Sequence record: PX405663.1
DNA: 45,326 nucleotides
Reading direction: 5' to 3' (one strand)
Origin: a phage
Both the position numbers and the translations under genes were made by a program. Positions 1 to 15,697 of this stretch are shown piece by piece. The first letter of the stretch is position 1. Every line of letters starts with the position of its first letter. Under the pieces are notes generated by a model, which saw nothing but the letters and a program-made list of their open reading frames with translations, made no database searches and was not told where the DNA came from.

Positions 1-818
1 TGGCACGCATCAACGCTGGGGCGGAAGTCGGCACGGGTAAGCCCCTTCTTGCCTCGGGAATACGCCTCCAGTGCGGCAATAGCGCGCTTGGATGCAAACT
101 TCGCGAATATCTCCAGCGCTTCTACCGAAATATCCCACTCCGACGCCCCGCCGCAATACGGCTGGAAGATAACCAGTCGCACGGTCGTAATGTCGTACAT
201 AGTTTGCAGCTTGCGCAGCAGGCCGAGCGCGTACAACATAAGCTGTTTGTTCTCTTTCGCCTCGACCTTATGCCGCCCGGTCTTCAGGTCGCCAACAATC
301 AGCATGTACGTCCCATCGGTCTTTTTCATGACCATGACCATATCTGCAGTACCGAACGTTTTAATCCTGTTGCCGTCGATCTCGTAGCCTGAGTGAAGGA
401 CGCGGGTCAGATCGGCGCGCATCTCAAGCTGAACAAACTCCGCCACTTCGATGAGCGGTCGCCAGTGGTCGATGTACGCGTCGCACTGTTTCACCATGTC
501 GTCGTTGACCAGTACGCCGCCTTTCGGTGCTTTCGGGTGTGCCTTTACTGGCCCCTTGCCTTCGTTCTCGACGTAGCACCCTTTATACGTCTTTGCGGTT
601 ATCAGCTTTTCACCGGCGATAATGCGGTTTAGCACCACTTCAGATACGGTGTGCATACTCGTACCGTTAATCGCGGCTTGCCCGGATTCGTTCGGGATAT
701 CTTTTTCTACCACCAGGGCAGCTGGGCAACCCATCCATTTTTTAGCACCGGATGGCCCGAGTAATGAGTGTTCCGTATTGCTACCGGATTGCGTCTTACG
801 TTTTGGTTTAATCGCCAT
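1..818 (-). CDS. Cas4/RecB-family PD-(D/E)xK exonuclease (DUF2800-like), N-terminal part; ORF runs off the window start and continues at 45199..44587 across the circular junction (about 476 aa in total)
   Basis: Codon-by-codon hand translation of the minus strand from ATG at 816..818 (TAATG overlap with upstream stop) is open to position 1: MAIKPKRKTQSG...WMGCPAAL...GTADMVMVMKKTDGTYMLIVGDLKTGRHKVEAKENKQLMLYALGL...RPSVDACQ; N-terminal Cys, D/E-K core with QxxxY, and CQWCRFADQC (C-x2-C-x5-C) spanning the junction are typical of Fe-S Cas4/AddB-type nucleases. Confidence 0.7.
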   Translation of the reverse strand, partial: MAIKPKRKTQSGSNTEHSLLGPSGAKKWMGCPAALVVEKDIPNESGQAAINGTSMHTVSEVVLNRIIAGEKLITAKTYKGCYVENEGKGPVKAHPKAPKGGVLVNDDMVKQCDAYIDHWRPLIEVAEFVQLEMRADLTRVLHSGYEIDGNRIKTFGTADMVMVMKKTDGTYMLIVGDLKTGRHKVEAKENKQLMLYALGLLRKLQTMYDITTVRLVIFQPYCGGASEWDISVEALEIFAKFASKRAIAALEAYSRGKKGLTRADFRPSVDAC

Positions 819-1006
819 TATTCCACCCGTGTAAATTGAGCAATGTAATAATCGTGTTCAACATTGGCCCGCTTCGCGGCTTCGTTCATGGTCGAGGCGA
901 GTTCGCAGGCTTGCGTCCAGCAGCGAATACAGTCCACATTCATAACAATTTCCGGTTGCTCGTCGCCGGTAATACGGCAACGAAATAAAACAAAGAATAT
1001 AGCCAT
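818..1006 (-). CDS. hypothetical protein (62 aa)
   Basis: ORF track; GGGAGA Shine-Dalgarno about 9 nt upstream; stop overlaps exonuclease start. Confidence 0.45.
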   Translation of the reverse strand: MAIFFVLFRCRITGDEQPEIVMNVDCIRCWTQACELASTMNEAAKRANVEHDYYIAQFTRVE

Positions 1007-1258
1007 TTATTTTGTCTCCCAGCGGTCAATTGTTTTTGCTTCGGATGCAACTGCGAAGCGAACATATTCCAGATTGGAATCCGCCCAAATATAAAAGTCG
1101 GGGTTAGTAAAGGTGGTGCGCTTAATTTGCGCGGGGGTGTTACGGCGTTTATCTATTACCGCAACGCGGGATTGAAAGCTGCCGATGCGTTCGAATAGCC
1201 AATAGTACGGGCGCTGGTCGCGGGAATCCACCGCCTCGATTAGCGTGAAGCGTGCCAT
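1007..1258 (-). CDS. hypothetical protein (83 aa)
   Basis: ORF track; GAGGA SD 8 nt upstream of ATG. Confidence 0.5.
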   Translation of the reverse strand: MARFTLIEAVDSRDQRPYYWLFERIGSFQSRVAVIDKRRNTPAQIKRTTFTNPDFYIWADSNLEYVRFAVASEAKTIDRWETK

Positions 1259-1306
1259 TGTCTCGTCCTCTAAAAATAGGCCCGCAGATTAGCGGGCCGG
1301 ATAATA

Positions 1307-1825
1307 TTAGTCTTCCAGTTCGAAATAAGTTTCGACGATTTCTTTAAGATCTTTGTGGAAGTCTTCGACGTCGTCATCTTCCAGCTTGGCGATTGATTTG
1401 ATCTCGAACGATTCCAGCAGGTCGTCGAATTCGTCGTTGGCATCGTCGTCGTCACCACCAGCGATAATAGCGGCATACTGTTTGATCTCGTCGCGCATCT
1501 CTGCCAGCGGATCGGCATCTTTCTTGCCTTTGCCTTTCGCCGGTGCTTTTTTACCCTTCGCCGGTTTTTCGTCTTCGGCTTCTTCATCGTCGTCATCTTC
1601 TACGACTTCTTTTTTGGCCTTACCTTTAGCCGGTGCTTTTTTGGTTTTCGCCGGTTTTTCGTCTTCGGTTTCATCGTCGTCATCTTCTACGACTTCTTTT
1701 TTGGCCTTAGACGGCTTCTTGTCTTCCGGCTTACCAACGGCAGCGCCAACGGTTTCATAATGCTTAGCGATGGTTTCCAGTGCTACTACGCCGCGAGTAA
1801 TCAGGTTTACGATTTGTTCAAACAT
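1307..1825 (-). CDS. highly charged tandem-repeat protein (172 aa), first gene of the minus-strand arm
   Basis: ORF track; GGAGA SD; protein has two copies of an approx 25-aa block KAKKEVVEDDDDE..EDEKPAK.KKAPAKGK and an acidic C-terminal half; underlying approx 75-bp tandem DNA repeat near 1540..1720. Confidence 0.6.
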   Translation of the reverse strand: MFEQIVNLITRGVVALETIAKHYETVGAAVGKPEDKKPSKAKKEVVEDDDDETEDEKPAKTKKAPAKGKAKKEVVEDDDDEEAEDEKPAKGKKAPAKGKGKKDADPLAEMRDEIKQYAAIIAGGDDDDANDEFDDLLESFEIKSIAKLEDDDVEDFHKDLKEIVETYFELED

Positions 1826-1925
1826 GGTATATCTCCGATTGGTTAAGTTTGGCGTCCGGGCGGTATGCCCGGTCGACGAGGGAGATATTAGATTGGTTGC
1901 AGAAGGGAGTCAACAACTAATTTCA

Positions 1926-1962
1926 AAAAAAAAGCGCCGAGGCAAAATGCAACGGCGCTAAC
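1926..1962 (-). terminator. hairpin plus T-run (read on minus strand) in the divergent control region; possible leader attenuator
   Basis: Plus strand shows A9 then AGCGCCG...CGGCGCT inverted repeat; on the minus strand this is a stem-loop followed by T9. Confidence 0.35.
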
Positions 1963-2025
1963 CAATAAGAGACAATGAGACGGGAATTATTATTACACGC
2001 GTGCGCGCCCGTTTCAATATCCAAA

Positions 2026-2058
2026 GGATTTGACACCGTGCAGTTTTGGGTGTAGTTT
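2026..2058 (+). promoter_or_regulatory. sigma70-like promoter for the plus-strand arm
   Basis: TTGACA, 17-nt spacer, TAGTTT about 35 nt upstream of the 2090 start codon. Confidence 0.4.
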
Positions 2059-2089
2059 CGTTGGTCATTAACCAACTGAGGGCAGAGCA

Positions 2090-2419
2090 ATGAATGTAAA
2101 CGACGCAATCGAAATGTTAACGAAGACTGTTAGCAGTGAAACAAGCCGGTCATGGGCTTATACCGATGCCGTTGGGGCGGTGTTGTTTGAAATCGAACGT
2201 CTGCGACTTACCGAAAAAGAATTGCGCGCGAAGCTGGAATTACTCAACGGTACTGCAGCAAGCAAGCTGCAAAAGCACAATGAAGAAATGGAAGAATACA
2301 AAAAACAGGTTATCCGTTTGCGCGCCGAGGGCAAATCCTGGGCAATGATTGCCGAGTTGACTGGGATTAATCAGAGCACAGTGCGCTCCTGGGTACGCAA
2401 TAATAAAACTTCTAAGTAA
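2090..2419 (+). CDS. coiled-coil plus C-terminal helix-turn-helix DNA-binding protein (109 aa)
   Basis: ORF track; GAGGG SD; C-terminal SWAMIAELTGINQSTVRSWV resembles an HTH. Confidence 0.55.
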   Translation: MNVNDAIEMLTKTVSSETSRSWAYTDAVGAVLFEIERLRLTEKELRAKLELLNGTAASKLQKHNEEMEEYKKQVIRLRAEGKSWAMIAELTGINQSTVRSWVRNNKTSK

Positions 2420-2429
2420 GGCCACGGCA

Positions 2430-4694
2430 ATGAGCTTAATTAAATTCGCTGTAACACGACCCGCTAAAAAAGGCGAAAAAGCCAGGGCGGAAAACTTCCA
2501 GATGACCACCGATGAATTTTTCGAATTTATCAAAGATGCGAAAGAAATCTCATCGGTGCATATCAACAAGACGGAAGATAAAGCCGAGTATGCGCGCCGC
2601 AAGCGTAAGGCCGATGGCATCGTAGCATATACCAGTGACGGCCTTCGCCGCAAGACCAGTGCGGTGGACCGCTCGATCCTGTTCTTCGATATCGACCGTA
2701 CCGACACCCGCACCTTACGCCGCTGCCGTAAGGCGTTCATTGACGCGGGTCTGGAACATGTGTTTCACACCACTACCGGCGACCGTCACCCGCTTAAAGG
2801 TGGAACGCGTTGCGCTCGCTTCCTGGTACTCACTGACAAGCCTGTACCGGCTGAAGACCTGGGCCGCGTCCAGTATGCACTATTACACCAACTGGGTCTG
2901 TCAGATGTGGACTTCGACGACTGCACGAAAGACACAAACCGCCTGATGTACCTGCCCCACCAGCAGTCTGTTATTAAGTGCCACTATGGCAAGCGCGCCC
3001 GCGTCCGTCGTCTGCTCCGCCTGGCTGACAAGCTGGGGGTGGAAAAAGAGGAAGTACGCCGCGAGCTTACCCAGGGCGACGACGCAGTGGCAGACGGTAT
3101 TCTGGACTGGTGCTTCCAGGCAGGATTCGAGGAGTTATCTTCCGGGCGGGGCTATGAAGTGCCGTGCCCGAACGAACATCTGCACAGCGGCGAAGGGTCC
3201 ACCGCCATAATGGTCAAGGATGGCGAGATCCGTTTCAAGTGTATGCACACCGGCAACGAGTGTTGCTCGGAACTGAATAGACACCAGCACCTGGCGCTAC
3301 GTCTTATCGGGATCCCGGACCACCTGAACGTCGAGCCACACAATATGTCCCGTAAGCAAATCGCCGCCATCCTTCCGGGGCTGGACGACGAGGAAGTCGA
3401 ATCCTTATATGAACATATTGTTGATGCGGTTGGAGACGGCGAAGAATACGGCGTGTGCACCGATGCGGATCTGGATAACGAGCCGGTTGCGCTGTTCAGT
3501 AAGCACGACCCGATTATCGAGGGGTTGATTAACTTTAAATCGACCTGGTACATGGCGGGTGAGTCGAATATCGGTAAGTCTTTCTATGTGCTGGGCCAGA
3601 TGGGCGCGGTTGCCGCCGGTATTCCGTTTGGTGGCGCGAAGGTCGTCCAGTCTCATTGCTTCTATTTCGACGCGGAAGGTGGCGAAGCCTCTAACCAGCG
3701 TAAAGAAGCATTGCAGATTAAATATGAGCACGACCTGGACAAGCTGCACATTATAGACCTGCAGTCACGCGGCTGGGATATCACCAGCAAATCAGGCTTG
3801 CGCGAAGTTATCAGCTTTATCAACCGCACCGCTAACGGCGAACCGGTTGGCCTGGTGGCGTTCGACTCACTCAACCAGACTGTTGCGTTGCGGTCCGCTG
3901 ATGCTAAACCGTTCGACGAGAACAACGCCAGCGATATGGGTGAAGTGGTCAAAGCGCTGAAGGCCATCGCGGAAAATACAGGTGGCAGTGCGGGCGTCAT
4001 CCACCACCCGGCTAAAGGTGCAAACGGCAGCAGAACGCCACGCGGGTCCGGCGCGCTGCATGGTGCTGTCGATTCTGCGTTCTTCCTGGAACAGCCGGAC
4101 GACAACCAGCCCGGACAATTGAACCTGTATCATGAGAAGTCACGTAACGGCATCAAGCAAGCGCCGCGCGGCTTCGTCCTGCTCAAGTGCAAGGTGAAGG
4201 TGGATCTCCGCAAGTCAGAAGCGTTCGAGGCGCACCAGTCCACCAGCACCGGGCCAGACTTCGGCGACGTGGTTGCCGGATGGGACGTCAAGCCGATTGC
4301 CTCCACGCCACGCGACGAGACTCTCTACCTCGTACCGGTTGCCCTGGCACCTTTCGCTATTGAACAGGCGAAGGCAGCAGGCAAGGCCGCGGTTAAGGAA
4401 GAGAACACCGCCGGACCGCGCAACGAAAAAGAGAAAGTGCTTTATGCGGCACTGGAAAAACTGATGGAAGATAACCCGGACCATACTGGATTCAGTAAAT
4501 CGGCAATTGTCCGCCAGGCGGGACTCGCGAAAGGCGGCACTTCGACGAAGGCAATCGACGATATGGTGGAGCGCGGGGTGATAGGTTTTTACACCGATCC
4601 GCACACCGGGGCCATCTATGGGTCGTCTAATTTGGTCATCAAATCGGATATCCCTATCACGCTTTCCGCGACCGATGACGATTTAAAAGATTAA
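2430..4694 (+). CDS. DNA primase-helicase (primase-polymerase-like N-terminal domain, zinc-binding region, P-loop NTPase/helicase C-terminal half)
   Basis: 754-aa ORF; FFDIDRTD and HVFHTTTGD primase-like motifs; CPNEHLHSG...CMHTGNEC zinc motif; Walker A GESNIGKS. Confidence 0.75.
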   Translation: MSLIKFAVTRPAKKGEKARAENFQMTTDEFFEFIKDAKEISSVHINKTEDKAEYARRKRKADGIVAYTSDGLRRKTSAVDRSILFFDIDRTDTRTLRRCRKAFIDAGLEHVFHTTTGDRHPLKGGTRCARFLVLTDKPVPAEDLGRVQYALLHQLGLSDVDFDDCTKDTNRLMYLPHQQSVIKCHYGKRARVRRLLRLADKLGVEKEEVRRELTQGDDAVADGILDWCFQAGFEELSSGRGYEVPCPNEHLHSGEGSTAIMVKDGEIRFKCMHTGNECCSELNRHQHLALRLIGIPDHLNVEPHNMSRKQIAAILPGLDDEEVESLYEHIVDAVGDGEEYGVCTDADLDNEPVALFSKHDPIIEGLINFKSTWYMAGESNIGKSFYVLGQMGAVAAGIPFGGAKVVQSHCFYFDAEGGEASNQRKEALQIKYEHDLDKLHIIDLQSRGWDITSKSGLREVISFINRTANGEPVGLVAFDSLNQTVALRSADAKPFDENNASDMGEVVKALKAIAENTGGSAGVIHHPAKGANGSRTPRGSGALHGAVDSAFFLEQPDDNQPGQLNLYHEKSRNGIKQAPRGFVLLKCKVKVDLRKSEAFEAHQSTSTGPDFGDVVAGWDVKPIASTPRDETLYLVPVALAPFAIEQAKAAGKAAVKEENTAGPRNEKEKVLYAALEKLMEDNPDHTGFSKSAIVRQAGLAKGGTSTKAIDDMVERGVIGFYTDPHTGAIYGSSNLVIKSDIPITLSATDDDLKD

Positions 4695-4794
4695 ATTTTG
4701 CGCGCATTGGTTGCCATTTTGCGTGCTTTTAGTCGGTCGTATTGGTTGCCGTGTAGTGTAAATATAGTGAATAGTTATGCAATAAAACTGCATA

Positions 4795-4965
4795 AAGTAA
4801 GCGGGACAAAAAGCGGGACAACCAGGGGGCGGGACAAAGCGGGACAGCACCCCTGTCCCGCCCCGGATGACGCGGCCTGGAGAGGAGCGGGACAGCGGGA
4901 CAGCACCCCAGTCTTTCAGACTAGACGGGGGGTCTGGCACCCCCCTCGTCTGAGACTGCATAAAA
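4795..4965. repeat. noncoding array 1: GCGGGACA(A/G) repeats in direct and inverted orientation ending in a conserved 51-bp imperfect hairpin (4908..4958)
   Basis: At least 7 copies of GCGGGACA within about 120 bp including the palindrome GGGACAGCACCCCTGTCCC; near-identical copy of the terminal element at 22101..22150. Confidence 0.8.
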
Positions 4966-5112
4966 TCCAGGATTGCATAATACACGGCAGCGTGATGCGA
5001 ATTGCGGTCGTCGACGAACTAGGCAACCAATACGAGTTGCAGAATGGTGGGTGAAAAATGCAGTTTGCAGTTTCAGCAGATAGCGATCAACTTTTTCATG
5101 CGCGTGATTGAT

Positions 5113-5169
5113 ATTGGTTGCACCCACCCTGGCACCCTGCTATATTGGTTGCACACCAACATGAGGACC
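5113..5169 (+). promoter_or_regulatory. tandem TATTGGTTGCA promoter-like motifs with TATATT -10 and conserved leader
   Basis: TTGCAC, 17 nt, TATATT; 27-nt stretch TATATTGGTTGCACACCAACATGAGGA is identical to the minus-strand sequence at 16214..16240. Confidence 0.55.
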
Positions 5170-5174
5170 GAACA

Positions 5175-5501
5175 ATGAAAGCGATTATCTGGAATTACGC
5201 AATGGCTATGGCGGCGGCACAAGAAGCGGCGGAGTTCGCCGGTGAAGGAGCGGAAGCGGTCGAAAGACTATCGGCAGCGTGGTCCGTTGTTCGCGTCACG
5301 CAGCAGGCCATCGCCTGTATGCTTGAGCGCCGCTTCGACACTATGGGAGAGATCCAGCCGTTGGCGAACGCTATCCAGGACTACGCGCTGGCATTTGCCC
5401 GTGAGCGCCTGGCGTATCGCTTCGGGATCGGTGAGACGGCAGCGACAAACGTCGCCCGGATTAAAGCCCAGCGCGAACTATTCGCCCAGCTTGCGAAATA
5501 A
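5175..5501 (+). CDS. hypothetical early protein (108 aa)
   Basis: ORF track frame, start moved to the ATG 7 nt after GAGGA. Confidence 0.5.
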   Translation: MKAIIWNYAMAMAAAQEAAEFAGEGAEAVERLSAAWSVVRVTQQAIACMLERRFDTMGEIQPLANAIQDYALAFARERLAYRFGIGETAATNVARIKAQRELFAQLAK

Positions 5502-5510
5502 GGGGTCAAA

Positions 5511-5780
5511 ATGGACCGCAGACGAGCTAAACGGCTTTCCTGGAGCATCCCATTGCATTGCGTACGAATATGGGCTAAGAATGCGAATGAGGGCGATTCT
5601 GTGTTCTGGTGCTACCGCGATGATGTGAAGCCGTTAACGCAGACTCGCTACTTGCACCAGTTCGCAGCACAACATGATTTCAGGGTGCGGACTTCCTTGC
5701 AACCAATGGGAATACGTATTACATTACGCCGGAAGCCCACCGTTGAGCGGGTAGGCAAACACTGGAGACTGAGCAAATGA
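5511..5780 (+). CDS. hypothetical protein (89 aa)
   Basis: ORF track; AAGGGG SD. Confidence 0.4.
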   Translation: MDRRRAKRLSWSIPLHCVRIWAKNANEGDSVFWCYRDDVKPLTQTRYLHQFAAQHDFRVRTSLQPMGIRITLRRKPTVERVGKHWRLSK

Positions 5781-5965
5781 TGATTAGGCTAAGCGACCAG
5801 GTGACGGACTCCGAGCTTGCGGAGTGGATCGCCGAAGGACGTGTCAGTTATCGATACGGGCCGCAGGTATGGGCTATTAAGCGCTGCCGTTGTGATATGC
5901 GCCCGCATAACGTGCGCAAGTTTATACGCAAGCATGGGGTATTTCTGGAGGCCGAGAAATGTTAA
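5777..5965 (+). CDS. hypothetical protein (62 aa)
   Basis: ORF track; ATGA start/stop overlap with upstream gene. Confidence 0.4.
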   Translation: MMIRLSDQVTDSELAEWIAEGRVSYRYGPQVWAIKRCRCDMRPHNVRKFIRKHGVFLEAEKC

Positions 5966-6093
5966 TAGGCGGATTCTCGCAGGAGTTTATCTACCTGCAC
6001 ATGTGCGTACTTGACTACGAACAAAACGGCATCGCTACGGTATGCGATGGCGACACGAAGACTATCGAAGAGATTGAGGAGACAGAGCAATGA
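5959..6093 (+). CDS. small acidic protein (44 aa), not in ORF track
   Basis: Hand-read ORF MLIGGFSQEFIYLHMCVLDYEQNGIATVCDGDTKTIEEIEETEQ; start overlaps the upstream stop, stop overlaps the next start (ATGA). Confidence 0.25.
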   Translation: MLIGGFSQEFIYLHMCVLDYEQNGIATVCDGDTKTIEEIEETEQ

Positions 6094-6734
6094 AATTACT
6101 ATTCCGCCGTAAAGCTGACGGCCGTATTCTGAAGCCGATCCAGACCCTGGATTCCTACGTCCGCCTACAAAACGCGGCAGGCAATCGGGTGTGGCGGGCG
6201 CCGAAACACACGCTGCCGCAGTTCTTCGACGTACTCACGCACGATATTGAGCGCGGCGATGTGCTGCGTGATATCCGCGACGGTAGTATGTGGATCGTTG
6301 AATATGTCGGGCCGCACGCGTTGCGGATGCAATCCCGCACGGATGGCGTAGCTGGTATGACTTACTTCGGGCTGGTCAACTATGAGCGAGTGGGCCGAAA
6401 ATACTGCCTTCGTGACCGCCAGCCACATGAGCGCGTTGAGTTCCGCAAGTCACAGCCCGCCTATGCGACCTACGACTCCCACCAGGTGCAGGCGAAGATG
6501 GGCCGCGCCGTACACCAAATCGTCAATCGCTTGGACGCCGTGACGAACGCACAGCGCCATGCGCAGGAATACGGTGTGGGATTCATCCGGGTAGAACGAG
6601 ACGGCAGTATGACGTCCATCGACCCGCGCTCGACCCAACTGAAGATAGTCGAAGTGAGCAAATGTTGCCGGGCAGAAGTTGTTCGCGACCCCGGCGGGCA
6701 AGCCTTCTGTCGCGAGTGTGCGGGTGTGATATGA
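6090..6734 (+). CDS. hypothetical protein with C-terminal Cys-rich zinc-ribbon-like motif (214 aa)
   Basis: ORF track; GAGGAGA SD; C-terminus KCCRAEV...CRECAG. Confidence 0.55.
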   Translation: MKLLFRRKADGRILKPIQTLDSYVRLQNAAGNRVWRAPKHTLPQFFDVLTHDIERGDVLRDIRDGSMWIVEYVGPHALRMQSRTDGVAGMTYFGLVNYERVGRKYCLRDRQPHERVEFRKSQPAYATYDSHQVQAKMGRAVHQIVNRLDAVTNAQRHAQEYGVGFIRVERDGSMTSIDPRSTQLKIVEVSKCCRAEVVRDPGGQAFCRECAGVI

Positions 6735-6877
6735 GCGCAACCATCCGTGATATGCTTATGCACAACCGTTTTGAGATAGGCGGTCGGGTATTTCGCAATT
6801 ACTTCGTGGCGCGTGCATGGGCGCGCCATATTGGCAAACCGGAAGGGGCAATTCGATGCTATACGTCTTCGCGGTAG
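6731..6877 (+). CDS. small hypothetical protein (48 aa)
   Basis: ATGA overlap with upstream gene; same frame as track ORF 6662..6877. Confidence 0.25.
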   Translation: MSATIRDMLMHNRFEIGGRVFRNYFVARAWARHIGKPEGAIRCYTSSR

Positions 6878-6953
6878 TATGTGGCGGTAGTCTGGCGGCC
6901 CTGGTGCTGTTGGCGTCGGTTATTAGTCTGGTTAAATACCTATGGAGCAGATT

Positions 6954-7241
6954 ATGATTCATGATGTGATTTATTGGTTTGGTTTGATCTGCGGGCTGTG
7001 CCTGCTTACAGCGGTGCTGTTGGGCGTCCTGATGTTCGTAGTATGGCCCGCCGTGGAAGCTGCCAGCATTACCCGCATGACGTTCGAGATATACAAGCGC
7101 CGTGGAATCAAGGAGCACCCGACCAGGTTGCGCATGTGGTGGCTGTGGTATCGGGATATGATAGGCGGTCGAACATTCGAAGCCGTCCGGTCTAGTGGAT
7201 GGGAGTGGAAAGGCGTCGGCAAGTGGTCCATTTTCGATTAA
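6954..7241 (+). CDS. small membrane protein (about 95 aa)
   Basis: ORF track 6942..7241; second in-frame ATG is 7 nt after GGAG; hydrophobic N-terminal segment. Confidence 0.45.
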   Translation: MIHDVIYWFGLICGLCLLTAVLLGVLMFVVWPAVEAASITRMTFEIYKRRGIKEHPTRLRMWWLWYRDMIGGRTFEAVRSSGWEWKGVGKWSIFD

Positions 7242-7258
7242 TTATGCAAGCGTGATAT

Positions 7259-7293
7259 AGTCCCAGTGAGCTAAAACTTACTGGGACTTTTTT
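7259..7293 (+). terminator. rho-independent terminator-like hairpin immediately before the lysis genes
   Basis: AGTCCCAGTGAGCTAAAACTTACTGGGACT followed by T6; the next ATG (7294) abuts the T-run. Confidence 0.5.
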
Positions 7294-7584
7294 ATGGATA
7301 AGCTAAACGAGTGGTTATTCGCCCTTGCGTGTCTTGCTGGTGGCTTCGTCGGCGCACGCATTCATGGCGAGGCAACGAAAGGGCCGTTGAATTTCGTTTT
7401 ATATGTCGTAGTTGGCTTCCTGTGTGCCATATTTGGTGCGCCAGCTATTGCCGAGTGGTCTGGTTTGTCTGGCGAGCGCACTGTCGCCGGTTTGGGCTTC
7501 GTAACTGCGATCTTCTGGATGCCAATCGCTGACCGGATCCGGGAGACTATTGCGTCGTTCCGACTTCCGGGGGGTGCAAAATGA
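7294..7584 (+). CDS. holin-like membrane protein (96 aa)
   Basis: ORF track; 2-3 predicted hydrophobic helices; sits immediately upstream of the endolysin. Confidence 0.5.
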   Translation: MDKLNEWLFALACLAGGFVGARIHGEATKGPLNFVLYVVVGFLCAIFGAPAIAEWSGLSGERTVAGLGFVTAIFWMPIADRIRETIASFRLPGGAK

Positions 7585-7826
7585 TTATCTCCGTCCTGTT
7601 GTTTGTTATCATAGGGGCTTCGTCCCTGTTTAACGTGTATGCGCCGTCCGTCCGGGATGGCATTTTCGGTCGGGTGCTGTATCTGTTAACGGCAATGGTC
7701 TGTATTATCGGATTGTTGCAAACAGGAGACGTATCGGATACCACCTGGACCGCGTTAATCTGGCTGTTTGCATTGCGCACCCTGCGTAATGCTGTTTTGA
7801 ATGGGGTAAAACATGCGATTCAGTGA
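7581..7826 (+). CDS. small membrane protein, holin/antiholin candidate (81 aa)
   Basis: ORF track; three hydrophobic segments; ATGA overlap with upstream gene. Confidence 0.5.
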   Translation: MIISVLLFVIIGASSLFNVYAPSVRDGIFGRVLYLLTAMVCIIGLLQTGDVSDTTWTALIWLFALRTLRNAVLNGVKHAIQ

Positions 7827-8304
7827 TAACGGTCTACGATTTACGGCAGCATGGGAGGCTTTCAGCCCGGTGCCGTATTTCGCGACCAAGAAAGAGCAGG
7901 CCCGCGGCCTGTATACCTGGGGCTATGGTCACACCGGCACTAATCCGCCTCGAAGCATTACCCGTGCTGAAGCGCTGGAACTGCTCAAGCGCGATGTGGC
8001 GTATGCCGAGGACTGGGTGAACAAATACGCACATCCGAGCATTAACCAGGCGCAATTCGACGCGCTGGTGGACCTGGTAATCAACGCCGGTCCAGGTCCG
8101 ATCGTACCGGATGACGTCGCGAATGATTTCGATGATGCGGTGCGACTGGGAGACTGGGCGAAGGTCCGGGCTACTCTGCCGCAGTTCCGCAAGCAGGGTG
8201 GATCGGTGCTCTTAGGTCTGGTCCGTCGTGCAATCGGCAGACAGGCGCTATTCGATGGTAAGCAGTGGGACGTTGCCGAGCGAATCGGGCGTAACGCAGC
8301 ATAA
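7813..8304 (+). CDS. endolysin, lysozyme-like (glycoside hydrolase family 24-like)
   Basis: 163-aa ORF with AWEAF...YTWGYGHTG...QFDALVDLVINAG pattern characteristic of phage lysozymes. Confidence 0.8.
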   Translation: MRFSDNGLRFTAAWEAFSPVPYFATKKEQARGLYTWGYGHTGTNPPRSITRAEALELLKRDVAYAEDWVNKYAHPSINQAQFDALVDLVINAGPGPIVPDDVANDFDDAVRLGDWAKVRATLPQFRKQGGSVLLGLVRRAIGRQALFDGKQWDVAERIGRNAA

Positions 8305-8320
8305 TACGAGGTAACACAGT

Positions 8321-8482
8321 ATGTTAAAAAGCATTCTTGATCATAACGCCGACGCGCTTGCCGCGCTGGCTAAAACCGAAGATCCGGGCGCGCGAGCTAT
8401 CATCGCGGACACTATCAACCACGCTGGGGTCTTCGATGCGAAGCTGCCGAGTCCGCCACCGCCGGAAGAACCAGAAGTGTAA
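8321..8482 (+). CDS. small Pro-rich hypothetical protein (53 aa), not in ORF track
   Basis: Hand-read ORF MLKSILDHNADALAALAKTEDPGARAIIADTINHAGVFDAKLPSPPPPEEPEV with GAGG SD. Confidence 0.25.
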   Translation: MLKSILDHNADALAALAKTEDPGARAIIADTINHAGVFDAKLPSPPPPEEPEV

Positions 8483-8488
8483 ACTACC

Positions 8489-8515
8489 AAGCCCGGATAA
8501 TTCCGGGCTTTTTAT
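8489..8515 (+). terminator. rho-independent terminator after the lysis cassette
   Basis: AGCCCGGATAATTCCGGGCT followed by TTTTTATT. Confidence 0.55.
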
Positions 8516-8548
8516 TGCTTGACTCGGGACCGTGGTATATTGTCCACG
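8513..8548 (+). promoter_or_regulatory. promoter-like element with inverted repeat CCGTGG..CCACGG flanking TATATTG
   Basis: TTGCTTGACT...TATATTG upstream of 8575; palindrome suggests an operator. Confidence 0.35.
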
Positions 8549-8574
8549 GTCCACTAATCAGGAATTAATTAAAT

Positions 8575-9717
8575 ATGCACCCGCAAACTAAAATTACCGA
8601 TGAGCAATTGATCGCAGAAATCCAGGCAGGGACTACAGTTAAAGAGATTGCGAAGAAATACGGGATTGCCCTACGCAATGTCTATATGCGGAAAGCCCGC
8701 CTGTCGAAAAAGGGAATTGGTCACGGCAACGATGCCGTAATCCGCAAGCGCGTTGCCGATGGCTTCGGTGTCAAGCGCGTATCGGCCCTGGTACGCGGCA
8801 ATGGCGAAGAGGTCATGTCGTGGGTCATCACTGAGCAGGACAAAGAGCGCCAACTCGAAGCTATGCGCGCTGTTGTCGAGGGTATGAACAGCGAAATCAC
8901 ACCGGCAGCGCCAGTAAAAGCCCCGCCAGTACCGATCCAGGCGCTCGACTTGCTCAACCTGTACACCGTGTCAGACTTCCACCTGGGCATGTTGGCCTGG
9001 GGTGAGGAGACTGGCGAGGACTGGGATATGGCAATCGCCGAAGATCTGTTTTACCGCTGGTTTGTCGAAGCCTTCGCACGCGCACCGGACGCGGGCACTG
9101 CCGTAATTAATATTCTCGGTGATATGGCGCACTTTGATAGTCTCGATGCTGTCACTCCGGCAAGTGGTCACATACTGGACGCTGACACCCGCTACCAGAA
9201 ACTGGTCCGATACATGATTCGCATGGTGCGCAACGTAGTCGAACTGGCGCTGCAAAAACACCACAAAGTCAAACTGCTAATCGTCCAGGGAAATCATGAC
9301 GAGTCGGGTATGATTTGGCTGGCTGAGATGTTCAATACTCTGTACGAGAACGAGCCGCGCGTCGATGTGGATACGTCACCGGACGTATACAAGATGGTGC
9401 AGCACGGTAAGACCACGCTGTTTTTCCACCACGGGCACAAAGCGCGATTCGATGCTATCGAGCAGGTTATGATCGCTAAATTCAGACAGGCTTTCGGGTC
9501 CAGTGAGTACAGCTACGCGCACGTAGGCCACTTGCACCACCAGAAGATTGTAGAGTCACGCAACATGATTGTTGAACAGCACCGAACGCTCGCAGCGAAA
9601 GACGCCTACGCCAGCCGTGGCGGATGGATGTCAGGTCGTAGTGCCAACGTCATTACCTACAGCGCCAACTACGGCGAAGTTGCACGCTTAACCATTAGCC
9701 CGGAAATGTTGAAGTAA
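8575..9717 (+). CDS. N-terminal HTH domain fused to calcineurin-like metallophosphoesterase
   Basis: 380-aa ORF; metallophosphatase motifs ILGDMAHFD, GNHDES, HHGH, GHLHH. Confidence 0.6.
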   Translation: MHPQTKITDEQLIAEIQAGTTVKEIAKKYGIALRNVYMRKARLSKKGIGHGNDAVIRKRVADGFGVKRVSALVRGNGEEVMSWVITEQDKERQLEAMRAVVEGMNSEITPAAPVKAPPVPIQALDLLNLYTVSDFHLGMLAWGEETGEDWDMAIAEDLFYRWFVEAFARAPDAGTAVINILGDMAHFDSLDAVTPASGHILDADTRYQKLVRYMIRMVRNVVELALQKHHKVKLLIVQGNHDESGMIWLAEMFNTLYENEPRVDVDTSPDVYKMVQHGKTTLFFHHGHKARFDAIEQVMIAKFRQAFGSSEYSYAHVGHLHHQKIVESRNMIVEQHRTLAAKDAYASRGGWMSGRSANVITYSANYGEVARLTISPEMLK

Positions 9718-9847
9718 CGGCGACCCGTAACCCTCCCAGCCTGCCGATTTGGTGGGCTTTTTTGCGCCTGTTATAATCCCCCTTAGATGGCAGGGCCGTC
9801 TCCTATGTTGCCGATGGTCGGCGCATATGAACAAAAGGGCTTATATC

Positions 9848-10399
9848 ATGGCAGAAATCAAAGTTAAGGGCCGACGCGCCAAACTGGACGGACGAGTAGC
9901 AGTAACCCCGCGCCGTAAACCAGGCGAGCAAACAGAGCATACCAATCTCGGACCTGAGATCGAGTACGGCAAACGTCGTAAAGGCGGCAAATGCGGACGC
10001 CCTACTGACTACCGATCTGTTTACTGCGACCAGCTTCGTCGCTATTTCGCCGATGCCGTAGCCTGGCAGATCAACTACTCTGACAAGGGCGCTGCGCAAG
10101 TCATCCCCCGCCACAAGATGCCGACTCTCGGTCGCTTTGCCGCGGATATTGGCGTGGGCATTGCCTGCCTGTATCGCTGGGCGCGCGCACATGAGGAGTT
10201 CGCCGAGGCGATGGCTGACGCTATGGAGTTACAGAAAACGTTCCTGATGGAAGCTGGCGGCGTGACCATCGCGGCGGGCTTCGCTACATTCCTGCTTAAA
10301 GCAAACCACGGCGTCCGGGACGATATTCCACTGGATGACGACGAAGATGATAACGGCGACGTCGTTGTCGAACCTACCGGCAAAGGTCAGGGCGAATAA
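9848..10399 (+). CDS. terminase small subunit (candidate); start may instead be 9827
   Basis: ORF track 9749..10399; internal ATG with AAAGGG SD; basic N-terminus, acidic C-terminus; stop overlaps TerL start (TAATG). Confidence 0.5.
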   Translation: MAEIKVKGRRAKLDGRVAVTPRRKPGEQTEHTNLGPEIEYGKRRKGGKCGRPTDYRSVYCDQLRRYFADAVAWQINYSDKGAAQVIPRHKMPTLGRFAADIGVGIACLYRWARAHEEFAEAMADAMELQKTFLMEAGGVTIAAGFATFLLKANHGVRDDIPLDDDEDDNGDVVVEPTGKGQGE

Positions 10400-11784
10400 T
10401 GCGTAACTATGCGGCAGAACACCGCGCACTGGAGCGCACGATCGCAAAGCGCAACCGACCACCACGCCCGACGCGCGTTGCGCAGGCCGTCCGCCTGTAC
10501 CAGCCTGATTGCCTTCCGCACCAGGTGGAACTACTGCGCGACACGAAGACTAAAATCCTCGGCCTGTGTTCCGGCTTCGGTGGTGGAAAGTCGTGGGTCG
10601 CTGCGAGAAAGGTCATCCAGCTTCTGACACTGAACCCGGGGCATGACGGCATCGTGACCGAGCCGACTATCCCACTCCTGGTTAAAATCATGTATCCGGA
10701 ACTGGAGAAGGCTTTCGACGAGGCGGGCTTCCGGTGGAAGTTCAACAAGCAGGACAAGATCTATAGCGTTCTGGTGAAAGGAAAATGGACCCGCGTTATC
10801 TGCGAGTCAATGGAGAACTACACCCGCCTAATCGGGGTTAACGCCGCGTGGATTGTTGCCGACGAGTTCGACACCACGAAGCAAGACGTCGCAATGGCGG
10901 CTTATCACAAATTGCTCGGTCGTCTGCGTGCAGGTCTTGTCCGCCAGTTTGTCATCGTGTCCACGCCGGAAGGCTTCCGGGCGATGTATCAAATCTTCGA
11001 GGTGGAGAAGGATAGCCAAAAGCGCCTGATCCGGGCGAAGACCACCGACAACCACCATTTACCGGCAGACTTTATCGACACGCTTCGCAGTCAGTACCCG
11101 GCTAACCTGATCGATGCGTACCTGAACGGTATGTTTGTTAACCTTACGTCGGGCGCGGTATACAAGATGTTTAACCGTGAGGAGAACGCAAGCACCGAAG
11201 AAGTGCAGCCGGAAGACACGCTGATTATCGGTATGGACTTTAACGTCACGAAAATGGCGGCGGTCGTGTATGTAAGACGGCAGCGTACCACCGAGAACAA
11301 GGAGTTCCGCGACGAGATTCACGCGGTGGATGAATTTGTGGACCTGTTTGACACACCGGCTATGATTGAGGCGATCGAGGAGCGCTACCCAGATCATTGC
11401 GCTGCCGGTAAGGTTGTCGTTTACCCGGACAGCAGCGGCAAATCCCGCAAGACGGTCAACGCGTCGTCGTCCGATATCGCACAACTGGAAGATGCGGGCT
11501 TCGAGGTGGAATATGACAGTGTTAACCCGCCTGTGAAAGACCGATTGATCGCGATGAATACGATGATGTGCAACTCGAAGGGTGTGCGCCAGTATTTTGT
11601 CAACCTGGATAAATGCCCTACACTAGCGAAATGTCTGGAACAGCAGGTGTACGACCTGAAGAAAGGCGAGCCGGATAAAACTGCCGGTGTGGACCACATG
11701 AATGACGCAGCGGGCTACCCTATTGCGCACTTGTTCCCTGTGATTCGTCCGATCGCCGTTGTTCCTACCGTAGATTTCTACTAA
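10399..11784 (+). CDS. terminase large subunit
   Basis: 461-aa ORF; Walker A GFGGGKS near N-terminus, ADEFD Walker B-like, nuclease-like C-terminal half. Confidence 0.85.
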   Translation: MRNYAAEHRALERTIAKRNRPPRPTRVAQAVRLYQPDCLPHQVELLRDTKTKILGLCSGFGGGKSWVAARKVIQLLTLNPGHDGIVTEPTIPLLVKIMYPELEKAFDEAGFRWKFNKQDKIYSVLVKGKWTRVICESMENYTRLIGVNAAWIVADEFDTTKQDVAMAAYHKLLGRLRAGLVRQFVIVSTPEGFRAMYQIFEVEKDSQKRLIRAKTTDNHHLPADFIDTLRSQYPANLIDAYLNGMFVNLTSGAVYKMFNREENASTEEVQPEDTLIIGMDFNVTKMAAVVYVRRQRTTENKEFRDEIHAVDEFVDLFDTPAMIEAIEERYPDHCAAGKVVVYPDSSGKSRKTVNASSSDIAQLEDAGFEVEYDSVNPPVKDRLIAMNTMMCNSKGVRQYFVNLDKCPTLAKCLEQQVYDLKKGEPDKTAGVDHMNDAAGYPIAHLFPVIRPIAVVPTVDFY

Positions 11785-11795
11785 GGAAACCGACC

Positions 11796-13316
11796 ATGAC
11801 CGTTAACGTTGACAACCAGCACCCGCTCTATGCGCGCATCGCGCCAGAGTGGAAAATGATCCGTGACTGCGTAGCGGGGGAGCGCGCCGTGAAGGCGTGC
11901 GGCCCCTTGTACCTACCACACCCCGCAAGCGGCGACACAACCGACCCGAAATCACGGGCACGGTATAAGGCGTATAAGCAACGTGCTGTCTTCCTGAACG
12001 CCACCGCCCGCACACTGAATGCGCTGTTAGGTGTCGCCTTCGCCAAACCGGTGAGTATGGACCTTTCCGGGGCAATGGCTGACCTGATTGATGACGTAGA
12101 CGGCAGCGGGATGCCGCTGGCGCAACTCCTGCGCGGCGCTATGTCTGAAGTTCTGCAATCAGGCCGTGCCGGGTTTATGGTAGACTACGACCGCCAGGCG
12201 CATTTTGACGAACTGGGTAACGTAGTACCGCAGACAGCCGCGGAGATGGCGGCACACCGCCCGCTTATCCGCCTGTATACGGCTGAACAGATCATTAACT
12301 GGCGGCAGACCCACGGGGTTGACACGCTAATCGTGCTGAAGGAAACGGACGAAATCAGCACCGAAGACCCGGACGACTTCGCAAACCACGAAGTAACGAT
12401 CTGGACCGAGCTTCGCATGATTGCAGGTAAGGCCCACGCCCGCCGCTGGTTTTACAACGCGGACACGTCCGAGGTGCAGATGGACTTGCCGCGAGGCTTC
12501 ACCCGCACCGACCTTGTACCGTTGGTGGATGCTGCCGGTAACGCGCTTACGCAACTGCCTTTCTGTTGGTGTGGTGCGGTTGATAACAATGCAACACCAG
12601 ATGCCGCACCGCTGGCGGATATCGCGTCCATCAACATTAAGCACTACAACGCCGAAGCGGACGTCGCCGAGATTGCGCACATCGTGGGCCAGCCTACGCT
12701 CATTACAACCGGCCTGACTCAATCATGGGCGGACAAAAACCTGAAGGGCGGGATCGCACTAGGCGCAACTAAGGGTGTTATCCTGGGCCAGAACATGGAC
12801 GCTAAACTTCTTCAGGCGGAGGAGCGCAACCTGTCGGTTGCCCTATGTGAGCGCCGTGAATTGCAAATGGCTAAACTGGGCGCTGCCCTGGTTGAGAAGG
12901 GGACCGCACCTAAGACGGCAACGGAGGCGGCTTATGATGCGCAGACTGATAACAGTATCTTGTCGCTGATTGCCGGTAATGTTGAGAAGGCTTTCAACCG
13001 TGCGCTGCAAATCGTCCAGCTTTTCACGGGGGACGCCGCAACCCAGCAAGTCACGTTGAATAAGTTCTACACCGAAATCACGGTTGACGCGCAGCTTATG
13101 ACCGCAATGATGTCGGGGGTGCAGACTGGTACTATCCGTCTGGCAGACTTTATCAAGTGGATGATGGCCCAGGGCGTTATCGATGACTCGCAAACCGTTG
13201 AGCAGGTGGAAGACGAATTGCGAAATCAGAATCCATTGCCTCAAATGTCCCCGGATGCGGTAGAATCTACCGAAGAAGACCCGGACAAGGTAGCGGACAA
13301 TGGCGAAGACAATTAA
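11796..13316 (+). CDS. portal protein
   Basis: 506-aa ORF immediately after TerL with AAGGA SD; size and position. Confidence 0.8.
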   Translation: MTVNVDNQHPLYARIAPEWKMIRDCVAGERAVKACGPLYLPHPASGDTTDPKSRARYKAYKQRAVFLNATARTLNALLGVAFAKPVSMDLSGAMADLIDDVDGSGMPLAQLLRGAMSEVLQSGRAGFMVDYDRQAHFDELGNVVPQTAAEMAAHRPLIRLYTAEQIINWRQTHGVDTLIVLKETDEISTEDPDDFANHEVTIWTELRMIAGKAHARRWFYNADTSEVQMDLPRGFTRTDLVPLVDAAGNALTQLPFCWCGAVDNNATPDAAPLADIASINIKHYNAEADVAEIAHIVGQPTLITTGLTQSWADKNLKGGIALGATKGVILGQNMDAKLLQAEERNLSVALCERRELQMAKLGAALVEKGTAPKTATEAAYDAQTDNSILSLIAGNVEKAFNRALQIVQLFTGDAATQQVTLNKFYTEITVDAQLMTAMMSGVQTGTIRLADFIKWMMAQGVIDDSQTVEQVEDELRNQNPLPQMSPDAVESTEEDPDKVADNGEDN

Positions 13317-14403: not shown

Positions 14404-14725
14404 ATACGCAGCGATTGGGCTGGTTATCGGTCTGGCGGTAGGATTCTGGCTAGGTGACTCCTATCGCGCTGGCGTAGTGGCGGAGGCGGCGCAAGAAGCG
14501 CAAGCCCAAGCCCAACGGCAGCAAACTAAAGTTGTTGAGCGCTCCGTGCAGGCCGAACAAGCCCGCGACGTAGAATACCGGACTATCACGAAAGAGGTTG
14601 TTAAATATGTTACGCGCCCTAACCGCCCTGATTGTAGTTTTGATGCTGAGCGCGTGCGGATCAAGCAACGTGCCGTTGATGCCGCTAACGGAGTCGGCGC
14701 TGCGACAGCCGTGCAAGTTCGATAA
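14396..14725 (+). CDS. i-spanin (Rz-like): N-terminal TM helix plus periplasmic coiled coil; start uncertain (track ORF 14366..14725 begins at TTG, GTG at 14396 has a GGGGG SD)
   Basis: AIGLVIGLAVGFWLG TM then AEAAQEAQAQAQRQQ coiled coil; o-spanin gene starts inside it in another frame. Confidence 0.55.
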   Translation: MIKYAAIGLVIGLAVGFWLGDSYRAGVVAEAAQEAQAQAQRQQTKVVERSVQAEQARDVEYRTITKEVVKYVTRPNRPDCSFDAERVRIKQRAVDAANGVGAATAVQVR

Positions 14726-14837: not shown

Positions 14838-14849
14838 TGGCCCCTTTTT
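14826..14849 (+). terminator. rho-independent terminator at the o-spanin stop
   Basis: GGGGCCGTAATGGCCCC followed by TTTTT. Confidence 0.5.
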
Positions 14850-14851
14850 CG

Positions 14852-15616: not shown

Positions 15617-15697
15617 TTTTGTGTCCTCGTTGTTGGGGCTTTCGCCCCGTTTGGTTTAGTTAAACTTGATGTTGCCGCCAATAGGGTGCTTTGTTAG

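What the first reader, a model, noticed from the sequence alone, without database searches (positions are those of the whole stretch)
1..818. Cas4-like Fe-S exonuclease gene spans the window junction and has a roughly 200-aa C-terminal extension; it forms a DUF2800-like / DUF2815-like / PolA block
The exonuclease ORF is continuous from 818 through position 1 into 45199..44587, with the C-x2-C-x5-C cluster split by the junction. This proves the window ends are arbitrary. The extra C-terminal domain (KAARRAKRGKKE..., Lys-rich) is not part of the nuclease core and may be a DNA-binding or interaction domain. The exonuclease, SSB-like and polymerase genes form a compact replication-recombination block.
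Basis: partly seen in the sequence, partly recalled or inferred. Interest (0 to 1): 0.45.

Follow-up and report, generated by a model that had tools for sequence, protein, structure and literature searches.

The report
Dhillonvirus DUF2800 recombination nuclease gene
The gene that runs across the window ends is the ordinary, already described DUF2800 nuclease of a Dhillonvirus coliphage, 98.5% identical to a nuclease studied in phage Bas14, and its "extra" C-terminal part is a standard domain of that family whose function is unknown.

Summary
The window is a circular assembly with an exact 127-bp end overlap. A 476-aa minus-strand ORF runs 818→1 and 45199→44587. It has Cys31 plus C272-x2-C275-x5-C281.

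The genome is a Dhillonvirus, an E. coli siphophage that packages by headful. The ORF lies inside more than 140 related genome records.

The protein is 469/476 identical to Bas14_0045 (B14T). A 2026 preprint shows B14T is a PD-(D/E)XK nuclease that triggers retron type IX, with D177/K179 essential.

The "~200-aa C-terminal extension" is not an addition. Pfam DUF2800 covers residues 17–463 end to end. All 150 best family representatives have both halves.

The nuclease → Gp2.5-like SSB → PolA order holds in 74–79 of 80 phage loci and is already published.

Verdict: already known, low interest. The one small open point is the C-terminal domain, which the preprint called disordered.

The parts
1..818 (-). 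5' part of the DUF2800 nuclease gene. It holds codons 1-272 plus 2 nt of codon 273, with the ATG at 818..816. It includes C31, H56, E132, D159, D177-L-K179, Q192xxxY196 and C272.
44587..45199 (-). 3' part of the same gene. It holds the last nt of codon 273 through codon 476, and the stop at 44589..44587. It includes C275 and C281, the linker, the C-terminal domain and the acidic tail.
45200..45326 (.). Exact duplicate of window 1..127. This is the overlap left by a circular assembly, not a biological terminal repeat. It repeats codons 232-272 of the nuclease gene.
   Evidence: That 127 is the usual largest k-mer of common assemblers is my own knowledge.
45148..45199 (-). End of the nuclease domain (aa 274-290). 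The domain spans aa 17-290 and continues from window 1..770. It has an AddB/AdnA/Cas4-like PD-(D/E)XK fold with the four-cysteine iron-staple motif.
44989..45147 (-). Variable linker, aa 291-343. An acidic stretch (TATDEDLGDDVSIATEEE) is followed by a Lys/Arg-rich helix (AREARKAARRAKRGKKE). It is not conserved in the family.
44644..44988 (-). Conserved C-terminal domain of DUF2800, aa 344-458. It is basic and predicted to be folded (alpha/beta). K385 is invariant. G377, G383, V387, G389, G392, R394, W396 and P424 are nearly invariant.
44590..44643 (-). Conserved acidic C-terminal tail, aa 459-476 (DDPRPAWSEATDEDLSNE). The family motif is D-x-R-P ... [DE][DE][FL].
44352..44594 (-). 80-aa ORF with a hydrophobic N-terminus (phrog_11211, unknown function). 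Its start overlaps the nuclease stop by 8 nt.
43479..44261 (-). Gp2.5-like / Enc34-type ssDNA-binding and annealing protein (PF10991, phrog_112). It has a mixed-charge repeat tail.
43250..43420 (-). 56-aa ORF (phrog_10102, unknown function) between the SSB and PolA genes.
40962..43253 (-). Family-A DNA polymerase (PF00476, phrog_17).
818..1258 (-). Two small upstream ORFs in the same operon: 818..1006 (62 aa, phrog_9934) and 1007..1258 (83 aa, phrog_4965). Both are of unknown function.

Best explanation
The ORF is the DUF2800 nuclease of a Dhillonvirus and is the ortholog of Bas14 B14T.

Shown here or in the literature:
- It is one gene of a circularly assembled genome that packages by headful.
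- Its N-terminal domain (aa 17-290) is a PD-(D/E)XK nuclease of the AddB/AdnA/Cas4 type. It carries the catalytic residues D159, D177 and K179, the QxxxY motif, and four invariant cysteines in the C...C-x2-C-x5-C arrangement.
- In the 98.5%-identical Bas14 protein, residues 18-295 alone cut structured DNA in vitro. The D177A/K179A mutant is inactive. The gene can be truncated without killing the phage.

Inferred:
- The protein is the end-processing nuclease of a three-gene module: nuclease, Gp2.5-like SSB/annealase, and PolA. It would produce or trim ssDNA that the annealase pairs and the polymerase extends. This would serve recombination-dependent replication, concatemer formation and break repair.
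- The C-terminal ~186 aa are not an add-on. They consist of a variable charged linker, a conserved basic folded domain (aa 344-458) and a conserved acidic tail.
- I think the basic domain most likely holds DNA or a partner protein.
- I think the acidic tail most likely docks on the SSB or the polymerase, as the acidic tails of T7-type SSBs do. This last step is speculation.
For: - Continuity and circularity.
- Family: PF10926 matches aa 17-463 to model positions 1-368/368 (E 1.6e-66). The C-terminal part alone matches model positions 245-368 (E 4.5e-20). PF12705 matches aa 109-281. phrog_69 'exonuclease' matches at 1.7e-106.
- Residues invariant over 105 members at 28-87% identity: S23, C31, G52, H56, E132, G156, D159, D177, K179, G181, Q192, Y196, C272, C275, C281, K385.
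- Fold: ACE1 (Cas4 family) 6.5e-7, AdnA 2e-6, Exo5, Cas4 SSO0001, MGME1, AddAB, Dna2. A profile search hits AdnA at 5e-4.
- Orthology to B14T: 469/476 identical with the same numbering.
- B14T experiments: bioRxiv 10.64898/2026.07.14.737667.
- C-terminal domain: all 150 top representatives have both halves and none matches the linker. Majority-residue frequency is 0.50 for this domain against 0.45 for the nuclease domain and 0.14 for the linker. Net charge is positive in 90% of members, and the tail is acidic.
- AlphaFold2: pLDDT 88-98 for the C-terminal domain within the full-length model (pTM 0.79) and 93.5 when modelled alone.
- Synteny: SSB directly downstream in 79/80 loci and PolA in 74/80, always in the order nuclease, SSB, PolA. 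The same holds for contigs of distant representatives. The module is described in PMC8093625.
Against: - No experiment shows a role in recombination or replication. [quoted passage not shown]
- B14T truncation mutants of Bas14 are viable, so the gene is dispensable on lab hosts.
- B14T cut msDNA internally, at the base of a stem-loop, so 'exonuclease' is an annotation and not a shown activity.
- The preprint describes the C-terminal region as disordered. The purified protein had lost it.
- My evidence that the C-terminal domain is folded is a prediction plus conservation.
- No solved structure or other sequence family gives a functional lead for this domain.
- Iron-sulfur binding is inferred from the motif only.
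Confidence: 0.75

Rival explanations
1. The C-terminal ~186 aa are an intrinsically disordered tail, as the B14T preprint states. On this view they have no fold of their own and at most act as a flexible charged spacer.
For: The preprint's AF3 model (pTM 0.66) was read that way. Purified B14T was trimmed to residues 18-295 and still cut msDNA. Residues 291-310 have low pLDDT (56-65) in my model. The linker is not conserved.
Against: Residues 344-458 are as conserved as the nuclease domain, with 2% gaps and a narrow length range of 107-127 aa over 105 members. K385 is invariant and about ten G/R/W/P positions are nearly invariant. pLDDT is 88-98 in the full model and 93.5 alone, with defined helices and strands. 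Pfam models this stretch as part of the domain. Cleavage in the linker would remove a folded C-terminal domain just as well.
Confidence: 0.12
2. The protein is a true Cas4, meaning a CRISPR-associated or CRISPR-interfering nuclease carried by the phage, rather than a recombination nuclease.
For: It has the same four-cysteine motif and PD-(D/E)XK fold. Cas4-family structures are among the best fold matches (9iac, 4ic1, 8d3l).
Against: No Cas4 Pfam or NCBIfam model is matched at E<=1 / 0.01; only DUF2800 and PDDEXK_1 are. AdnA, Exo5, AddB and Dna2 match about as well. The gene sits in a replication module in 74-79 of 80 loci, with no cas genes or CRISPR arrays seen in the annotated or Pfam-labelled contexts. 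Cas4 proteins lack the C-terminal domain (my own knowledge: they are about 200 aa).
Confidence: 0.03
3. The main role of the nuclease is to degrade host DNA or defence nucleic acids (a counter-defence or host-takeover role), not to resect phage DNA. Its place in the replication block would then only reflect early co-expression.
For: It cleaves a host defence DNA (retron msDNA) in vitro and in cells. It is dispensable for plaque formation. No recombination assay exists.
Against: Cutting msDNA activates the defence and harms the phage, so it is not a counter-defence in that case. The tight and very widespread adjacency to a Gp2.5-type annealase and PolA fits the usual nuclease-annealase pairing. 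The closest folds are end-resection nucleases.
Confidence: 0.1

Closest known systems
Bas14_0045 (B14T) of Escherichia phage TheodorHerzl, the trigger of retron type IX (bioRxiv 10.64898/2026.07.14.737667)
   Same: 469/476 identical, same length and numbering (D177, K179), and same gene neighbourhood. This is the same protein for practical purposes.
   Different: Seven substitutions, of which two lie in the region following the basic linker block (P341S and S345T in Bas14). Nothing else differs. The preprint does not mention the four cysteines and calls the C-terminal part disordered.
Pfam DUF2800 (PF10926) / PHROG 69 'exonuclease', listed as RecB-like probable prophage proteins in Steczkiewicz et al. 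2012 (PMC3424549)
   Same: End-to-end match to the model, covering both the nuclease half and the C-terminal half.
   Different: At 476 aa it is longer than the family median of about 420 aa. The extra length comes from a longer linker and short inserts in the nuclease domain.
AddB / AdnA / Cas4 / Exo5 / Dna2 iron-staple PD-(D/E)XK nuclease domains
   Same: Fold-level matches (Foldseek E 6.5e-7 to 1e-3). Same D...D-x-K, QxxxY and C...C-x2-C-x5-C motifs.
   Different: It is a stand-alone protein with no helicase partner domain. It carries a conserved C-terminal domain and acidic tail that none of these have. Sequence identity is only 11-17%.
Phage nuclease-annealase pairs such as lambda Exo-Red beta and RecE-RecT
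   Same: A PD-(D/E)XK nuclease gene lies next to an ssDNA-annealing protein gene. RecE and lambda Exo appear among the weaker fold matches.
   Different: The annealase here is a T7 Gp2.5-type OB-fold protein, not Red beta/RecT. The nuclease is of the RecB/AddB type with an iron-sulfur motif, not a toroidal lambda Exo. The pair is joined to a PolA gene. No recombination activity has been shown.

Membership tests
Pfam DUF2800 (PF10926) | Full-length match to the profile above the gathering score (21 bits) | tested here: met
   225.5 bits, E 1.6e-66, aa 17-463 against model positions 1-368/368
Pfam DUF2800 (PF10926) | Two-part architecture: nuclease half plus conserved C-terminal half | tested here: met
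   The N-terminal half alone matches model positions 1-239. The C-terminal half alone matches positions 245-368. All 150 top representatives have both halves.
PD-(D/E)XK nuclease superfamily (RecB-like branch) | Catalytic D ... (D/E)-x-K motif plus QxxxY | tested here: met
   D159, D177-L-K179 and Q192xxxY196 are invariant over 105 members. PF12705 matches at E 6.8e-8. D177A/K179A is inactive in the 98.5%-identical B14T.
PD-(D/E)XK nuclease superfamily (RecB-like branch) | Metal-dependent DNA cleavage | not testable with these tools
   Reported for B14T residues 18-295 with Mg2+ on retron msDNA. Not measured for this exact sequence.
AddB/Cas4-type iron-staple nuclease domain | Four cysteines arranged as C-x(n)-C-x2-C-x5-C around the nuclease core | tested here: met
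   C31, C272, C275 and C281 are invariant over 105 members
AddB/Cas4-type iron-staple nuclease domain | Bound 4Fe-4S cluster | not testable with these tools
   Needs UV-visible or EPR spectroscopy or a structure. The B14T preprint does not mention it.
Cas4 (CRISPR-associated; Pfam Cas_Cas4 and NCBIfam Cas4 models) | Match to a Cas4 sequence model | tested here: not met
   No Cas4 family is listed at E<=1 in Pfam or at E<=0.01 in NCBIfam
Cas4 (CRISPR-associated; Pfam Cas_Cas4 and NCBIfam Cas4 models) | Association with cas genes or a CRISPR array | tested here: not met
   The neighbours are replication genes in this phage and in distant relatives. I did not run a dedicated CRISPR array search on the window.
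duf2800-gp2.5-polA phage replication/recombination module (PMC8093625) | Nuclease, Gp2.5-like SSB and PolA genes adjacent, on one strand and in this order | tested here: met
   Window: 818..44587, 44261..43479 and 43253..40962, all on the minus strand. 79/80 loci have the SSB and 74/80 have PolA in that order.
Two-component nuclease-annealase recombinase (works like lambda Red or RecET) | Nuclease-dependent homologous recombination with the partner annealase | not testable with these tools
   Only the gene adjacency is shown. No recombination assay is known to me.

The most novel reading that the evidence does not exclude
The conserved basic C-terminal domain and acidic tail of DUF2800 proteins would be a previously unrecognised module with a fold not seen in solved structures. 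It would tether the nuclease to DNA ends and to the Gp2.5-like SSB or PolA. That would make the three genes a physically coupled resection-annealing-synthesis machine. The published view of this region as 'disordered' would then be wrong.
Probability: 0.3. Interest if true: 0.4.

Novelty: already known. Interest (0 to 1): 0.18.

Why it matters
Little is new here. The gene, its family, its fold class and its gene neighbourhood are all in the literature, and a near-identical protein has been studied at the bench.

This check adds three things:
- The window is placed in Dhillonvirus.
- The "extension" is shown to be a normal part of the family.
- The C-terminal domain is shown to be strongly conserved, basic, confidently predicted to fold, and unlike any solved structure, although the only experimental paper calls it disordered.

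DUF2800 nucleases are very common in phages (9,653 representative clusters at E<=1e-3). They are now also known as a trigger of a bacterial defence system. A structure and a partner map for the C-terminal domain would help explain what the nuclease does for the phage and why bacteria sense it.

Tried and rejected
I used P0001, which is 97% identical, instead.
- A word-indexed homologue search with the C-terminal domain alone returned one fragment only. This reflects a limit of the index and is not evidence of rarity.
- The full protein found nothing in PDB sequences by phmmer. The family profile found only weak AdnA and ACE1 matches to the nuclease half. The C-terminal domain profile found nothing credible.
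- The afdb50 library was not available.
- BFVD gave weak matches of the C-terminal domain to stand-alone 135-166-aa phage proteins, and to 'Siphovirus Gp157' and 'host-nuclease inhibitor' entries (E 0.008-2.7). I could not fetch those sequences. Neither Pfam nor PHROGs linked the domain to any family other than DUF2800 / phrog_69. I therefore do not claim a Gam- or Gp157-like relation.
A 19-member alignment worked.
- I rejected a frameshift or chimera at the junction, because the same ORF is internal in many independent genomes.
- I could not inspect model coordinates or predicted aligned error. Whether the C-terminal domain packs on the nuclease domain is therefore not established. A pTM of 0.79 only hints at it.

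Full report
**1. The observation**

The first 127 bases of the window are identical to the last 127, that is 1..127 equals 45200..45326. After removing one copy, the circle is 45,199 bp. On this circle a single minus-strand ORF begins at the ATG at 818..816. It crosses position 1 into 45199 and ends with its stop codon at 44589..44587. It encodes 476 aa.

The cysteines are at 31, 272, 275 and 281. C272 is encoded at 5..3, C275 at 45195..45193 and C281 at 45177..45175. Because of the overlap, the motif can also be read unbroken at 45204..45175.

The ORF start overlaps the stop of an upstream 62-aa ORF (TAATG). Its stop overlaps the start of an 80-aa ORF by 8 nt. It is therefore one cistron of a tightly packed minus-strand operon.

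**2. What the genome is**

The block 40900..45326 matches 159 phage records. In 145 of them, one place covers at least 80% of the query at 90% identity or more. Nearly all are Escherichia or Shigella phages of the genus Dhillonvirus, such as SSL-2009a, slur05 and the BASEL phages.

In SSL-2009a the same 476-aa gene is gp48 'exonuclease' and lies well inside the record. The same is true in KarlBarth (bas17_0046) and TheodorHerzl (bas14_0045).

Dhillonviruses assemble as circles, and PhageTerm predicts headful packaging (PMC9022532). The window ends are therefore arbitrary. The 127-bp repeat is an assembly overlap. My own knowledge is that 127 is the usual largest k-mer of common assemblers.

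**3. What the protein is**

Pfam DUF2800 (PF10926) matches residues 17-463 against model positions 1-368 of 368 (E 1.6e-66). PDDEXK_1 matches residues 109-281. PHROG 69 'exonuclease' matches at 1.7e-106. NCBIfam has no model for it.

An alignment of 105 family members at 28-87% identity has these invariant residues: S23, C31, G52, H56, E132, G156, D159, D177, K179, G181, Q192, Y196, C272, C275, C281 and K385. They correspond to:
- the PD-(D/E)XK catalytic set;
- the QxxxY motif of RecB-like nucleases;
- the four cysteines in the arrangement known from AddB, Cas4, Dna2 and Exo5 (that comparison is my own knowledge).

An AlphaFold2 model has mean pLDDT 91.7 and pTM 0.79. It was built on P0001, which is 97% identical, with the 105-member alignment. 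Its best matches among solved structures are:
- the Argonaute-associated Cas4-family protein ACE1 (6.5e-7);
- AdnA (2e-6);
- Exo5, Cas4 SSO0001, MGME1, AddAB and Dna2;
- more weakly, RecE and lambda exonuclease.

The family profile also reaches AdnA by sequence (5e-4). 'Cas4-like Fe-S nuclease' is therefore fair as a description of fold and motif. No Cas4 sequence model is matched and the context is not CRISPR. I do not file it as a Cas4.

**4. It has already been studied**

The protein is 469/476 identical, without gaps, to Bas14_0045 of phage TheodorHerzl. A preprint of July 2026 (bioRxiv 10.64898/2026.07.14.737667) names this protein B14T. It reports the following:
- Bas14 mutants that escape retron type IX (Sen3) carry missense or truncating mutations in this gene.
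- Expression of B14T alone triggers the retron.
- D177A/K179A abolishes the effect.
- Purified B14T, which had been trimmed to residues 18-295, cuts the retron msDNA at the base of its stem-loop.
- The authors' fold comparison points to AdnA and RecB.
- The role of the protein in the phage life cycle is unknown.

The window protein has D177 and K179 at the same numbers. The preprint does not mention cysteines or iron. It describes the part after the nuclease domain as a predicted disordered region.

**5. The 'C-terminal extension'**

Residues 291-476 on their own match DUF2800 model positions 245-368 (E 4.5e-20). They also match PHROG 69 positions 335-475.

An exhaustive search of 1.84 billion cluster representatives found 9,653 relatives at E<=1e-3. 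In the 150 best (median length about 420 aa, mostly 30-40% identical to the query), every one matches both the nuclease half and the C-terminal half. None matches the linker. The top 150 are ranked by full-length score, which favours two-domain members. Shorter forms may exist further down the list.

Across the 105-member alignment the regions behave as follows:

| Region | Length | Majority-residue frequency | Gaps | Charge |
|---|---|---|---|---|
| Nuclease half | median 260 aa | 0.45 | 8% | median pI 5.0 |
| Linker (aa 291-343 here) | 7-67 aa | 0.14 | 59% | acidic; no conserved column |
| C-terminal domain (aa 344-458) | 107-127 aa | 0.50 | 2% | median pI 9.3; net positive in 90% |
| Tail | median 23 aa | 0.47 | 3% | median pI 4.1 |

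The C-terminal domain has K385 invariant. G377, G383, V387, G389, G392, R394, W396 and P424 are nearly invariant. The tail carries D460-x-R462-P, followed by an acidic [DE][DE][FL] motif.

It is shared by Dhillonviruses and a few relatives. It is shortened in some Dhillonviruses (465-466-aa forms). In the Klebsiella-phage-like clade at 55-60% identity it is absent or replaced by a different insert.

**6. Is the C-terminal domain folded, and what is it?**

In the full-length model, residues ~345-470 have pLDDT 88-98. Only residues 1-10 and ~290-310 are poor. Modelled alone from the window's own sequence (aa 338-476, 43-sequence alignment), the domain gives pLDDT 93.5 and pTM 0.67. The model has a long helix, a small sheet and several short helices.

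- The domain profile finds nothing in PDB sequences.
- All 43 domain sequences hit only DUF2800 in Pfam and only phrog_69 in PHROGs.
- Against predicted viral structures, it matches the C-terminal parts of other phage DUF2800 / 'RecB-like exonuclease' proteins, including actinophage ones. There are also weak, unverified matches to stand-alone 135-166-aa phage proteins.

The domain is therefore real, conserved and probably folded. It is specific to this nuclease family and has no functional lead from homology. The loss of this part during B14T purification is what cleavage in the exposed linker would produce. It does not show disorder. It does show that the domain is not needed for catalysis in vitro.

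**7. The gene block**

Downstream on the same strand lie:
- an 80-aa hydrophobic ORF (phrog_11211);
- the Gp2.5-like / Enc34-type SSB (PF10991, E 4.5e-31; phrog_112);
- a 56-aa ORF;
- PolA.

VRR-NUC and SNF2-helicase genes follow. A primase-helicase gene is transcribed divergently at 2430..4694.

In contigs of distant family representatives, the order DUF2800, Enc34_ssDNA-bd, DNA_pol_A was found in every contig long enough to show it. Among 80 phage loci fetched with a family pattern, a profile built from the window's SSB found an SSB directly downstream on the same strand in 79. The exception is a contig end. A PolA profile found PolA further downstream in 74, always in that order. These loci are not independent of one another.

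The module is already described as duf2800-gp2.5-polA (PMC8093625). DUF2800 was classed as RecB-like in 2012 (PMC3424549). T7-type SSBs use acidic C-terminal tails to contact their polymerase and helicase and to dock on neighbouring OB folds (PMC5686142).

**8. Most likely mechanism**

Shown: a metal-dependent PD-(D/E)XK nuclease acting on structured DNA. This comes from the near-identical B14T.

Inferred from synteny and fold class: it processes DNA ends or branched intermediates. The product is ssDNA that the adjacent annealase/SSB coats and pairs and that PolA extends. This would serve recombination-dependent replication, concatemer formation for headful packaging, and repair of cut genomes.

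Speculative: the basic C-terminal domain holds DNA or a partner, and the acidic tail docks on the SSB or PolA.

Against a strong claim: the gene is dispensable for plaque formation in Bas14, and no recombination assay exists.

**9. Verdict**

The thing itself is an already known gene in a well-sampled phage genus. The only point of some freshness is that the C-terminal domain is conserved and probably folded rather than disordered, with no known structural relative.

Noticed in passing
window 43479..43700 (-), C-terminus of the SSB gene; compare L012:4142-4876: The Gp2.5-like SSB ends in about 80 aa of alternating acidic and basic blocks (DDDDEDD-KPRKSKKSKRR and similar). The last residues are PRKRRRR, not the acidic/aromatic end typical of T7-type SSBs. 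The DNA shows a 54-bp tandem repeat (2.3 copies). Bas14 lacks one block, so the copy number varies within the genus.
   Followed up: partly
window 44989..45147 (-) and 43479..43700 (-): The nuclease linker (an acidic run followed by AREARKAARRAKRGKKE) has the same acidic-then-basic block style as the SSB tail in the same phage. This may be coincidence, or it may reflect a shared electrostatic interaction mode. I did not test it.
   Followed up: no
window 44352..44594 (-): An 80-aa ORF with a hydrophobic N-terminal segment (MNKVFAILLMFLLGALGFILHC...) sits between the nuclease and SSB genes. Its start overlaps the nuclease stop by 8 nt. It matches phrog_11211 (unknown function). A small ORF also occupies this position in some distant relatives, for example 67 aa in L005.
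   Followed up: partly
window 1279..1298 (-): A perfect 7-bp GC stem (GGCCCGC/GCGGGCC) followed by a T-rich tract lies between the 172-aa ORF (1307..1825) and the 83-aa ORF (1007..1258), upstream of the nuclease. It looks like an intrinsic terminator or attenuator inside the operon. The count of such sites in the region is not above chance.
   Followed up: no
window 1589..1606 and 1676..1693 (+): The same 28-base string (GTCGTCATCTTCTACGACTTCTTTTTTG) occurs twice, 87 bp apart, inside the acidic 172-aa ORF (phrog_3127, unknown function). This points to an internal repeat in that protein.
   Followed up: no
L009:6001-8277 and L010:1805-4081 (protein P0137): One family member is 758 aa long, with about 350 extra residues before the DUF2800 part and no Pfam hit on record for them. 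Unlike the C-terminal part of the window protein, this is a genuine extension.
   Followed up: no
window 40962..43253 (-): The PolA matches Pfam DNA_pol_A only over residues 393-482 (58 bits). It also gives a weak hit to the DpoZ model over residues 36-245 (E 1e-4, far below the cut-off). It is a divergent family-A polymerase, and I did not examine its exonuclease domain.
   Followed up: no
whole window: No tRNA genes were found. G+C content is 54.6%.
   Followed up: yes
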